64,000 bases of DNA from Moniliella sp. 'wahieum' (GCA_003971905.1 RSEE01000033.1:1-64000), one strand, 5' to 3'. Numbered from the stretch's first letter, positions 7,701 to 8,836 are shown. Notes: generated from the letters alone by a model not told the origin. Translations and numbers: made by a program.

Positions 7701-8836
7701 GGTGGGACGAAGCTCTCTTTCCCTGCCCGCCCGCAGTGGCGGGCTTGGCTTCTTCTCCCACCTCGACGTTGCTCCCCACGCGCGGGCGGCCTCATGCGAG
7801 GAGGCGGATGTGTGGGTGGAAAAGGTGATTGCTGGCTGCCGACCGGAGAGAGAGAGAGAGAGACGCGCCAGCCGCCACGCGACAGTCGCAGCGGGAACGG
7901 ACGACCGCCATGTTTGCCGACCAACAGGCGAAGCTACTGACCGAGCTGCCGCCCGAGTTGGGCCACCGGCTGCTAGAGAACGCCGAAGCGCTCAACCGGA
8001 CGTGGATGTCGGTGGTGCCCTCGACTCCAGCTTTAACGCTTCCTGACCACGAGGTCATGGCTGGACTGCACCTCCGCACCCTCTGCCGGCACGCCGCCGT
8101 CTGCCGGAACTGCAACGGACCCTGCCCAGATGTGGGGCACCTGCAGTCCTGCAACCGGTGGCGCTCGATTGGCAACTACCGCCATGAGATGCTCCGACGC
8201 TGCATCGTCAACCTGGCCCGGCACATTCCGGCCACCGAGGTGGAGACCGAGCCCTTCACCCAGCCGCAGCGCCCCGGGCGCTACGACCGCACCGCCAACC
8301 GCACCGACATCAAGCTGACAGGAACCGGTGCCTCCAAGGGCACCTCGACATGCTACGACCTGACGTTTTGGTCTTTCGGGAACAAGACGCGCGACGCCGA
8401 CATGCGCCGCGTCCGCCAGCAACTCGCCGCCACCACGCCGGCGCCCGAGCTGCGCAGGAAGGAGATGGATGTGTTTGTCGAGACCGCCGCCAAGGACAAG
8501 CACCGCAAGTACGACGCGATTACTACAGGTGCTTTTGTGCCCTTGGTCTTTACCGCAGGCGGCTACGCCCACGGCGAGGCCAAGGCTGCTTTGGCGCACT
8601 GGAAGGGGGAGGCGAACGCCGGTGCCTACCGCACGTTCACCGCCCTCTTTTCGTCCTGGCTCTTGCGTTGTGCGGTACAAGGCATGCGAGTCGCCCCTTC
8701 CCACCGCGCCACCCCCACGGATGGCGGGGAGGGGGCGATACTCGTAGAGCCCCGCGCGGCGTAAGCCAGATGGCGTACACCCCATCCTCGGTACTACTCC
8801 TGTCAGAGCGTTTTAGGCGCCAGAAAATGCACCCCC
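4791..8836 (+). mobile_element. Non-LTR retrotransposon, CRE-clade-like (RT + restriction-like endonuclease), inserted in 28S rDNA
   Basis: GC-rich non-rRNA segment between two copies of the same 28S sequence (4566-4790 and 8837-9060); encodes RT and RLE motifs; no LTRs, no APE domain, no poly(A). Confidence 0.92.
4807..8764 (+). CDS. Retrotransposon polyprotein (probably one ~1300 aa ORF, split by apparent indel errors): two CCHC knuckles, Pro/Ala-rich linker, reverse transcriptase, CCHC + RLE endonuclease
   Basis: CGLCSRYGHVDAGC and CGVCHTPGHRRDQC (4807-5217); RT motifs LTALAKPDGGVRPIACGE, QLGVKSKGGVE, LDFKNAFNSVDR, QGVRQGDPFGP (6012 ORF), YLDD, GLELNVAKT, KVLGSCIG (7265 ORF), LPARSGGLG (7645 ORF); CRNCNGPCPDVGHLQSC, RHE, RTDI, YDLT, KHRKY, FVPLVFTAGG (7829 ORF). 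Confidence 0.88.

What the first reader, a model, noticed from the sequence alone, without database searches (positions are those of the whole stretch)
8765..8836. Element 3' end is a diverged mimic of the 28S just upstream of its target, with no poly(A)
Seen: only 72 nt separate the stop codon from the resumed rRNA. The last 22 nt (AGGCGCCAGAAAATGCACCCCC) match the native sequence preceding the same junction (4544-4565, AGGTGCCAGAAAAGTTACCACA) at 16/22. TGGCGTA..ATCCT weakly echoes TGGCCTA..ATCCT at ~4504. Inference: the 3' UTR is anciently captured target rDNA, implying long residence at this site and possibly RNA-DNA pairing for target recognition or priming.
Basis: partly seen in the sequence, partly recalled or inferred. 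Interest (0 to 1): 0.7.

Follow-up and report, generated by a model that had tools for sequence, protein, structure and literature searches.

The report
Retrotransposon tail that mimics 28S target
A jumping gene lodged in a fungal large-subunit ribosomal RNA gene ends in 22 bases that imperfectly copy the ribosomal sequence just before its landing point; the resemblance is real, and since its relatives mostly land in chromosome-end repeats, it may show how such elements change targets.

Summary
The main observation holds. Window 8765-8836 is the 72-nt, poly(A)-less 3' UTR of a ~4.05-kb non-LTR retrotransposon (4791-8836) lying in sense orientation in a 28S gene. It is flanked by a 225-bp target duplication (4566-4790 = 8837-9061). 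Its last 22 nt match the 28S just upstream of the junction at 16/22 in register (about 1e-5 by shuffling). The further "TGGCGTA..ATCCT" echo is chance.

The element is a Cnl1/MoTeR-like, CRE-clade element with a restriction-like (REL) endonuclease. Of 26 relatives with a readable 3' end, 19 abut C-strand telomere repeats, 0 of 78 sit in rDNA, and 0 of 16 show such a target mimic. The missing poly(A) is therefore a family trait, but the mimic is special to this copy. The middle of the tail also carries an ATGCA box seen in 14 of 16 close relatives (weak support, p about 0.03).

Best reading (0.4): the tail is carried by the element RNA, is target-derived or target-matched, and docks the template's 3' end on the target when reverse transcription starts.

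"Ancient capture" and "long residence" are unproven. There is only one copy, no closer relative (50% identity or less), no reads, and a noisy assembly. I class it as a new variant of a known kind, interest about 0.5.

The parts
1815..4790 (+). 28S (LSU) rRNA gene, 5' part up to the element's 5' junction, just 3' of the AGUACGAGAGGAAC (sarcin-ricin) motif
   Evidence: Rfam LSU_rRNA_eukarya 1815-4877, 2688.8 bits. The alignment puts window 4790 at about model position 3049.
4544..4565 (+). Native 28S segment that the element's tail resembles; it ends at the position matching the 3' junction
   Evidence: 16/22 identity with 8815-8836. The junction falls between Rfam model positions 2822 and 2823, just 5' of GGGAUAAC.
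4566..4790 (+). Upstream copy of the 225-bp target duplication
   Evidence: Self-BLAST 4544-4795 = 8815-9065, 96.4% over 252; printed side by side.
4791..8836 (+). Non-LTR retrotransposon, about 4.05 kb, GC 63-76%, sense orientation relative to the rRNA. Its 5' boundary is ambiguous by 4-5 nt (GCCG microhomology).
4858..5217 (+). First ORF piece, with two C-X2-C-X4-H-X4-C motifs starting at 4900 and 4969
   Evidence: Regex on the translation. Pfam gives no family at E<=1, so the knuckles are read from the sequence only.
5967..7208 (+). Reverse-transcriptase region, first frame
   Evidence: tblastn of four homologues, 38-40% identity. Pfam RVT_1 E=1.2e-5, 25.6 bits, below the 29.6 cut-off because the domain is split by the frameshift.
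7196..7208 (+). Frameshift inside the RT, in a stretch rich in C and T runs
   Evidence: The homologue alignments change frame here; sequence.
7826..7828 (+). In-frame TGA inside the aligned ORF
8102..8500 (+). REL-endonuclease domain: C-X2-C-X8-H-X3-C-X9-RHE ... E-P ... R-T-D ... D ... K
   Evidence: Invariant columns C92, C95, H104, C108, R118, H119, E141, P142, R158, D160, D177 and nearly invariant E120, K224 in alignment A1. The published REL consensus is quoted.
8765..8836 (+). 3' UTR, 72 nt, no poly(A), no notable fold
   Evidence: RNA fold z = 0.57; 142 of 200 shuffles fold as well.
8815..8836 (+). 22-nt tail: 28S-like part (8815-8827), ATGCA box (8827-8831), terminal C5 (8832-8836)
8837..9061 (+). 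Downstream copy of the target duplication
9062..9198 (+). 3' end of the 28S gene
   Evidence: Rfam match 8784-9198.

Best explanation
Window 8765-8836 is the 3' UTR of a full-length Cnl1/MoTeR-like (CRE-clade) non-LTR retrotransposon. As assembled, its ORF is slightly damaged. It has a restriction-like (REL) endonuclease and inserted by target-primed reverse transcription into a 28S rRNA gene of a probable basidiomycete.

The first-strand nick lay just 5' of GGGAUAAC. The 5' end was joined 225 bp further downstream, which duplicated 4566-4790.

The last 22 nt are transmitted through the element's RNA: they were reverse-transcribed, not supplied by the target. They are a 28S-derived or 28S-matched copy of the 22 nt lying just upstream of the nick. 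The most economical origin is an ancestor whose template carried 22 nt or more of target sequence at its 3' end, through read-through or a shifted nick. That stretch then became part of the element and drifted at 6 positions.

Inferred mechanism: the tail pairs with the bottom strand just 5' of the nick, with a perfect 9-bp core. This sets the last template nucleotide against the primer's 3'-OH, so cDNA synthesis starts precisely without a poly(A) or a telomere-repeat handle.

Shown: anatomy, family, significance and register of the mimic. Inferred: origin by capture, and any pairing function.
For: Anatomy.

Family: RT plus REL motifs. The nearest named homologues are hypothetical proteins of Cryptococcus neoformans, Filobasidium, Tilletia and Saitozyma, and a Diplonema protein named SLACS. 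The published clade is MoTeR/Cnl1/SLACS/CRE, with the same REL consensus (PMC12857005, passages).

Mimic: 16/22 in register, P about 1e-5. The 9 nt outside any family box match 8/9, P = 2.5e-4. The mismatches are substitutions only, so the register is kept over all 22 nt.

The mimic is confined to the end that is copied first. The 5' end shows none (8,243 of 100,000 shuffles do as well), nor does the rest of the UTR.

Relatives reach their targets without such a mimic: 0 of 16 tails resemble the telomere sequence in register (4-8 of 22). The feature is therefore specific to the lineage that left telomeres.

A precedent for target sequence carried on the element RNA and used for annealing exists at the other end of R2 (PMC3774820, abstract).
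Against: There is only one copy, so neither site specificity nor conservation of the tail could be tested.

No pairing experiment or covariation test is possible, because the 28S segment is invariant.

Pairing upstream of the nick is not the known geometry. From recall, the published cases (R1Bm, R2) involve pairing with sequence downstream of the nick.

Five of the six mismatches lie in the 9 nt nearest the junction, where a docking duplex would matter most.

Part of the tail (AAAATGCA) fits a box of the telomeric relatives: 188 of 127,976 window positions score as high, about 0.026 per 30 nt. That fits inheritance rather than capture.

The assembly is noisy here. The two rDNA units differ by 68 indel events and 23 substitutions in 4.1 kb, including 4 indels in 5.8S. 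No reads could be examined.
Confidence: 0.4

Rival explanations
1. Relic without function. The 22 nt were captured from the target (3' transduction or a shifted nick) and are simply decaying. Target choice is made entirely by the protein.
For: The tail is 27% diverged, with mismatches concentrated next to the junction. The relatives need no mimic (0 of 16). The N-terminus differs from the relatives: two CCHC motifs, where the alignment consensus of the relatives has CPxC...LxHxxxxH. A protein-level retargeting is therefore plausible.
Against: A neutral 22-mer that had drifted through many retrotransposition cycles would be expected to pick up indels and lose register. Here the register is exact and a 9-nt perfect core survives.
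Confidence: 0.2
2. One-off ectopic insertion. A telomere-repeat element landed once in an rDNA unit at the edge of the array, at a place that happened to resemble its own 3' end (AGAA..ATGCA..C-run). No rDNA-specialised lineage exists.
For: 19 of 26 evaluable relatives abut C-strand telomere repeats and 0 of 78 loci carry rDNA. Telomeric lineages lie on both sides of the window element in the RT tree. An ATGC box occurs in 14 of 16 close relatives, and the tail has it. The tail ends in C5, like the CCCCCTAA unit of those relatives. The inserted unit is next to the decayed last unit of the array. In Magnaporthe, rDNA ends are telomeric and unstable, and a MoTeR was found one repeat away from rDNA (PMC7367193, passages).
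Against: The 9 nt upstream of the box match 28S 8/9 (P = 2.5e-4), which the family box does not explain. The box is weakly supported (about 0.03) and is absent from the deeper telomeric relatives. No telomere repeats occur in the window. The element is 50% identical or less to every relative found, so its own lineage's habits are unknown.
Confidence: 0.15
3. Assembly or polishing artefact. Reads from the many uninserted units were aligned over the junction and pulled the consensus of the last bases towards 28S, or the duplication itself is a mis-join.
For: This rDNA region has heavy indel noise (68 indel events in 4.1 kb between units). The window holds only one copy of the 28S 3' end, so reads from normal units would pile up there.
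Against: Edge pull would convert the bases nearest the junction first, yet 5 of the 6 mismatches lie in the 9 nt nearest the junction and the perfect 9-mer lies further in. Substitution differences between the two units are rare (23 in 4.1 kb). The two copies of the duplication were not homogenised.
Confidence: 0.1
4. Pure coincidence between an unrelated element end and the neighbouring rRNA.
For: One other rDNA position scores slightly higher against the tail (score 11 against 10), so matches of this quality do occur.
Against: That is 2 of 26,716 positions, and the observed one is the single pre-specified place. Shuffle P is about 1e-5.
Confidence: 0.05
5. The duplication is really 247 bp (4544-4790) and its first 22 nt were damaged at or after insertion.
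For: BLAST joins 4544-4795 to 8815-9065 in one alignment.
Against: There are 6 differences in 22 nt against 2 in the next 225 nt. In TPRT the downstream copy is target DNA and should be exact. I know of no process that would mutate only its edge.
Confidence: 0.05

Closest known systems
Cnl1 (Cryptococcus), MoTeR1 (Magnaporthe oryzae), FoTeR (Fusarium oxysporum): fungal telomere-repeat non-LTR retrotransposons of the CRE/SLACS clade
   Same: Both have RT followed by a C-terminal CCHC plus RHD/N..E..R/KPD..D/E endonuclease (against the consensus quoted). The nearest named homologues are Cryptococcus proteins at 39% identity. There is no poly(A), and the 3' end abuts the target directly. The 3' UTR is short.
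   Different: The target is a 28S gene, not telomere repeats. The insertion has a 225-bp duplication. The N-terminus has two CCHC motifs instead of the relatives' C..C...H....H motif. The tail mimics the target upstream of the nick, which 0 of 16 relatives do. Identity is only 36-42% in RT and about 30% in the endonuclease part.
R2 and other rDNA-specific R elements of animals
   Same: Both are REL-endonuclease elements inserted in sense orientation in a conserved part of the 28S gene, with a precise 3' junction and no poly(A). R2 RNAs can carry upstream 28S sequence that is thought to anneal to the target (PMC3774820, abstract).
   Different: The clade differs: the best hits are Cnl1-like and SLACS-named proteins, and none was named R2. 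The site and host kingdom differ. In R2 the carried 28S sequence is at the 5' end. No HDV-like ribozyme was detected. No multicopy evidence is available.
R9 of bdelloid rotifers
   Same: It is an rDNA-specific REL element that makes an exceptionally long target duplication. This is from the title of Gladyshev and Arkhipova 2009, seen in the reference list of PMC5035012. The figure of 126 bp is recalled.
   Different: The duplication here is 225 bp. The clade, site and host all differ.
R1Bm-type annealing of read-through target sequence at the template's 3' end (recalled, not read here)
   Same: Target-like sequence at the RNA 3' end is used to set the start of reverse transcription.
   Different: In R1Bm the sequence is the target downstream of the nick and pairs with the primer. 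Here it is the sequence upstream of the nick.

Membership tests
CRE-clade (Cnl1/MoTeR/SLACS-like) REL-endonuclease non-LTR retrotransposons | Reverse-transcriptase domain | tested here: met
   Pfam RVT_1 E=1.2e-5 on the first frame, below the cut-off because the domain is split by a frameshift. 61 homologues with RVT_1 were found, best E=1.2e-66.
CRE-clade (Cnl1/MoTeR/SLACS-like) REL-endonuclease non-LTR retrotransposons | C-terminal CCHC motif followed by RHD/N ... E ... R/KPD ... D/E | tested here: met
   C92-X2-C95-X8-H104-X3-C108-X9-R118-H119-E120, E141, R158-T-D160 and D177 are invariant or nearly so in alignment A1. The published consensus is in PMC12857005. The variants here are RHE and RTD.
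CRE-clade (Cnl1/MoTeR/SLACS-like) REL-endonuclease non-LTR retrotransposons | RT phylogeny groups it with the clade | tested here: inconclusive
   A quick IQ-TREE of 58 rows places it in a polytomy at the base of the basidiomycete-like telomeric clade (SH-aLRT 94), with a Diplonema SLACS-named protein as outgroup. No R2, NeSL or other clades were included, and the program warned of long branches.
Telomere-repeat-specific subgroup (Cnl1, MoTeR, FoTeR) | 3' end abuts C-strand telomere repeats | tested here: not met
   The 3' end abuts GGGATAAC of the 28S. No telomere-like repeat occurs anywhere in the window. Only a terminal C5 could be a remnant.
rDNA-specific R elements (R2 superclade) | Many copies at one and the same rDNA site | not testable with these tools
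   There is one copy in the window. No genome is held, no run was listed, and the junction 28-mer was absent from two collections.
rDNA-specific R elements (R2 superclade) | N-terminal C2H2 zinc finger(s) and Myb | tested here: not met
   Pfam gives no family on 4858-5217 at E<=1. The only convincing metal-binding motifs found by regex are two CCHC motifs; one loose C2H2-like regex hit at 5596 lies in a proline-rich stretch.
rDNA-specific R elements (R2 superclade) | 5' HDV-like self-cleaving ribozyme | tested here: inconclusive
   No ribozyme family was found in 4500-9300 at E<=1. The 5' UTR is only about 67 nt. Divergent ribozymes can be missed.
Long-TSD rDNA elements (R9-like behaviour) | Target duplication longer than 100 bp | tested here: met
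   225 bp, 4566-4790 = 8837-9061.

The most novel reading that the evidence does not exclude
A lineage of telomere-repeat retrotransposons (Cnl1/MoTeR kind) has been re-aimed at the peptidyl-transferase region of the fungal 28S gene. It would be the first 'R element' of fungi. It is guided at least partly by its own RNA: a 22-nt 3' tail that pairs with the target just upstream of the nick. It makes the longest target duplication known for an rDNA element (225 bp). If so, target choice in REL-endonuclease LINEs could be reprogrammed through the template's tail.
Probability: 0.2. Interest if true: 0.8.

Novelty: new variant of a known kind. Interest (0 to 1): 0.5.

Why it matters
Site-specific LINEs are being turned into gene-insertion tools, and how they change targets is an open question. 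This is a member of a telomere-targeting clade caught inside a 28S gene. Its tail copies the sequence next to its nick, and its N-terminal motif differs from its relatives'. That makes it a natural experiment on retargeting.

If the tail takes part in site choice or in setting the start of reverse transcription, it points to an RNA-encoded component of target recognition in REL-endonuclease elements. It would also add fungi to the hosts of elements living inside rRNA genes. The 2024 review passages I read list only spacer insertions for fungi.

If it is a one-off landing, it still documents how rDNA units at the edge of an array collect insertions.

Tried and rejected
- Whole genome: none is held.
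- Sequencing runs: none was listed for 4700-8950, and no RNA holder was listed. Read-level checks and expression could not be done.
- First metagenome scan: I queried with the C-terminal piece first. 305 pattern matches came back but none was confirmed, because the patterns lay in the RT. I repeated with the RT piece first.
- rDNA beside relatives: blastn of the window's rDNA against 78 loci gave 0 hits. Rfam on 16 of those loci (long flanks, no telomere repeat seen) gave 0 matches.
- Closer relatives: two searches of the 5.8-billion-protein set gave 61 and 25 hits. Identity was at most 42% over most of the query and at most 50% over a third of it.
- Junction 28-mer: 0 matches in genome contigs and 0 in viral contigs.
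- Earlier notes of this scan, by sequence and by words: nothing relevant.
- Ribozyme or other RNA family in the element: none at E<=1, apart from a 17-bit chance hit.
- Fold of the 3' UTR: not better than shuffles.
- Mimicry at the 5' end: none.
- Mimicry in the rest of the UTR: none.
- L025, the nearest relative by path length: no flanking repeat or recognisable target.
- Literature: a search for papers holding non-LTR, rDNA, basidiomycet, site-specific and 28S found 0 papers.
- Considered and rejected: gene conversion from the upstream copy into the tail. It would give identity, not 73%.
- Considered and rejected: healing of a broken rDNA end by telomerase, followed by a telomeric insertion. 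This does not explain the in-register 28S match, and it needs extra steps to rejoin the 5' side.

Full report
**Setting.** The window opens inside a eukaryotic rDNA array.
- Small-subunit rRNA runs to 1446, 5.8S is at 1535-1689, LSU starts at 1815, and a 5S gene lies on the same strand at 9797-9915.
- A second unit follows: SSU at 13127-14953 and LSU from 15320.
- The second unit matches the first only up to 17629, which corresponds to 4103. The rest of the window is not rDNA.
- So this is the edge of the array, and the window holds a single copy of the 28S 3' end.
- Earlier notes of this scan call the genome a smut-related basidiomycete. I did not test that. The nearest named homologues of the element's protein are basidiomycete proteins from Cryptococcus, Filobasidium, Tilletia and Saitozyma.

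**The insertion.**
- 28S sequence runs to 4790, nine bases past the AGUACGAGAGGAAC motif (about Rfam model position 3049). A GC-rich stretch (63-76% GC) follows, up to 8836.
- At 8837 the 28S resumes, but from the position that corresponds to 4566, the start of GGGATAAC (model position 2823).
- 4566-4790 is therefore present twice: 225 bp, differing by one base in a T run and one substitution.
- The 5' boundary is ambiguous by 4-5 bases of microhomology. The element's 5' end does not otherwise resemble the 28S it displaced (8,243 of 100,000 shuffles do as well).

**The element.**
- Translation shows a first ORF piece from 4858 with two C-X2-C-X4-H-X4-C motifs (Pfam finds no family there).
- It is followed by a Pro/Ala/Arg-rich stretch with an unclear frame, and then a reverse transcriptase and a C-terminal domain.
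- The C-terminal domain reads C-X2-C-X8-H-X3-C-X9-RHE ... E ... R-T-D ... D ... K. These residues are invariant or nearly invariant in an alignment with 19 homologues.
- That motif matches the restriction-like (REL) endonuclease consensus published for MoTeR, FoTeR, SLACS and CRE (PMC12857005, passages).
- Homologues align through one frameshift at about 7196-7208, in a run-rich stretch, and through one in-frame TGA at 7826-7828.
- These lesions may not be real. The two rDNA units differ by 68 indel events and 23 substitutions in 4.1 kb, including 23 indels in SSU and 4 in 5.8S.

**The observation.**
- The stop codon is at 8762-8764 and the UTR is 8765-8836, 72 nt, with no poly(A).
- The last 22 nt match 4544-4565 at 16/22 without gaps, in register with the junction.
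- An anchored score as high arose in 2 of 200,000 shuffles of the last 100 nt, and in 0 of 3,847 pseudo-tails cut from the element.
- When the tail is slid along 26,716 rDNA positions on both strands, the true place ranks second.
- Upstream of the 22 nt there is nothing.
- The UTR has no notable fold (z = 0.57), and no Rfam family other than rRNA is found in the element at E<=1.

**Relatives.**
- The protein searches gave 61 and 25 hits, none closer than 42% identity over most of the query.
- A scan of metagenome contigs gave 78 loci. None carries rDNA, and 16 loci checked with Rfam gave nothing.
- Instead, 19 of 26 loci with a complete C-terminus and at least 100 nt after the stop have C-strand telomere-like repeats within 400 nt of the stop. 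Sixteen of the 42 loci with a C-terminal match were not evaluable.
- Several loci also begin with such repeats, as head-to-tail arrays would.
- None of the 3' ends printed shows a poly(A). The family is therefore the telomere-repeat group known from Cnl1 (preprint 10.1101/2021.08.11.455996, passages) and MoTeR (PMC7367193, passages).
- In a quick RT tree the window element sits in a polytomy at the base of the basidiomycete-like telomeric clade, with telomeric lineages also outside it. The program flagged long branches, and I included no R2 or NeSL references.

1. The missing poly(A) is inherited from the family and is not linked to the mimic.
2. The mimic is not a family habit. I compared the last 22 nt of 16 relatives with the telomere sequence that would precede their junction, in phase. 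They match at 4-8 of 22, and none stands out from shuffles (smallest fraction 0.138).
3. Fourteen of those 16 tails have an ATGC box 8-11 nt before the repeats.
   - The window's tail has AAAATGCA directly before its terminal C5.
   - A weight matrix built from the relatives scores it 7.07 bits. That is reached by 188 of 127,976 window positions (about 0.026 for a 30-nt stretch) and by 2 of 4,034 element positions, one being the tail itself.
   - This is weak support, and the deeper telomeric relatives lack the box.
4. If the box is real, the three bases TGC that break the 28S match are family sequence, and the tail is a mosaic.
5. Even so, the nine bases 5' of the box (8815-8823) match the 28S at 8/9 (P = 2.5e-4; 0 of 4,016 element 9-mers; 9 of 89,786 non-rDNA 9-mers). 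The 28S likeness therefore stands on its own.

**Mechanism.**
- In target-primed reverse transcription (TPRT) the DNA on the element side of the 3' junction is copied from the RNA. The 22 nt therefore travel with the element.
- A tail identical to 4544-4565 would be invisible: it would look like a junction 22 nt further upstream. So the simplest origin is target sequence once carried at the template's 3' end, by read-through or a shifted nick, that has since drifted by six substitutions.
- The exact register and the 9-nt perfect core suggest it is still used. I propose that it pairs with the bottom strand just 5' of the nick, so that the last template base sits next to the primer's 3'-OH. This would replace the telomere-repeat handle that the relatives presumably use. 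That step is inference.
- Points against it:
  - Published pairing (recalled for R1Bm and R2) is with sequence downstream of the nick.
  - Five of the six mismatches lie in the 9 nt nearest the junction.
  - The relatives manage without any mimic.
- The 225-bp duplication means the 5' end was joined 225 bp downstream of the first nick. It fits the rule that REL elements have precise 3' and variable 5' boundaries (PMC4640811, passages). It exceeds the long duplication reported for R9 (title seen; the 126 bp is recalled).

**Rivals.** In order of my odds, with details under Rival explanations:
1. A captured relic with no function.
2. A single off-target landing of a telomeric element at a place that resembled its own end. 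This is attractive because rDNA ends are telomeric and unstable in fungi and the inserted unit adjoins the decayed last unit.
3. A polishing artefact.
4. Chance.
5. A 247-bp duplication with a damaged edge.

**Limits.** One copy, no reads, no genome, no relative above 50% identity, and a noisy consensus. 'Long residence' is therefore unproven, and the pairing idea is untested.

**Verdict.** The main observation is real and significant. The object is a new variant of known kinds: a Cnl1/MoTeR-like element behaving like an R element, with an R9-like long duplication. Interest is moderate.

Noticed in passing
window 17521-19012: The second rDNA unit's LSU stops matching the first at 17629 (= 4103), right after ...CCCACT.TCCCT.TCT. 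From recall, this is the neighbourhood of the insect R1 site. LSU-like sequence reappears at 18944-19012 (= 4092-4161, 83%). The roughly 1.3 kb between holds a 5S-like piece (18053-18134, 79.5% to 9791-9873) and spacer-like pieces (18323-18446). It looks like a decayed, rearranged terminal unit, possibly with an old insertion and a ~12-bp duplication.
   Followed up: partly
window 1-4103 versus 13498-17629: The two rDNA units differ by 68 mostly 1-nt indel events and 23 substitutions, even inside SSU and 5.8S. This points to consensus errors in the assembly of this region, or to a decaying terminal unit.
   Followed up: partly
L005, L006, L007, L010, L011, L016, L017, L022, L039 (last 45 nt before the telomere repeats): Many telomeric relatives have a TATA-like motif (TATAC/TATAT) 10-25 nt upstream of the conserved ATGC box at their extreme 3' end. 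In head-to-tail arrays this could be an outward promoter for the next element, as recalled for Drosophila HeT-A. The window element's tail lacks it.
   Followed up: no
window 37909-38127 and 42433-42649: A 220-bp inverted repeat (93.6%), its arms about 4.3 kb apart, brackets a 90-nt tRNA match on the minus strand at 40383-40472. It may be the ends of a mobile element, or a duplicated gene pair.
   Followed up: no
window 9797-9915: The 5S rRNA gene is linked to the rDNA unit on the same strand, about 600 nt after the 28S end. Tandem spacer repeats lie at 10155-10854 and 12201-12514.
   Followed up: no
L024, L046: Deeper relatives of the family abut other telomere repeat types (CCCTAAAA-like in L024, CCCTAAA in L046). 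The telomere-targeting habit therefore spans hosts with different telomere units.
   Followed up: no
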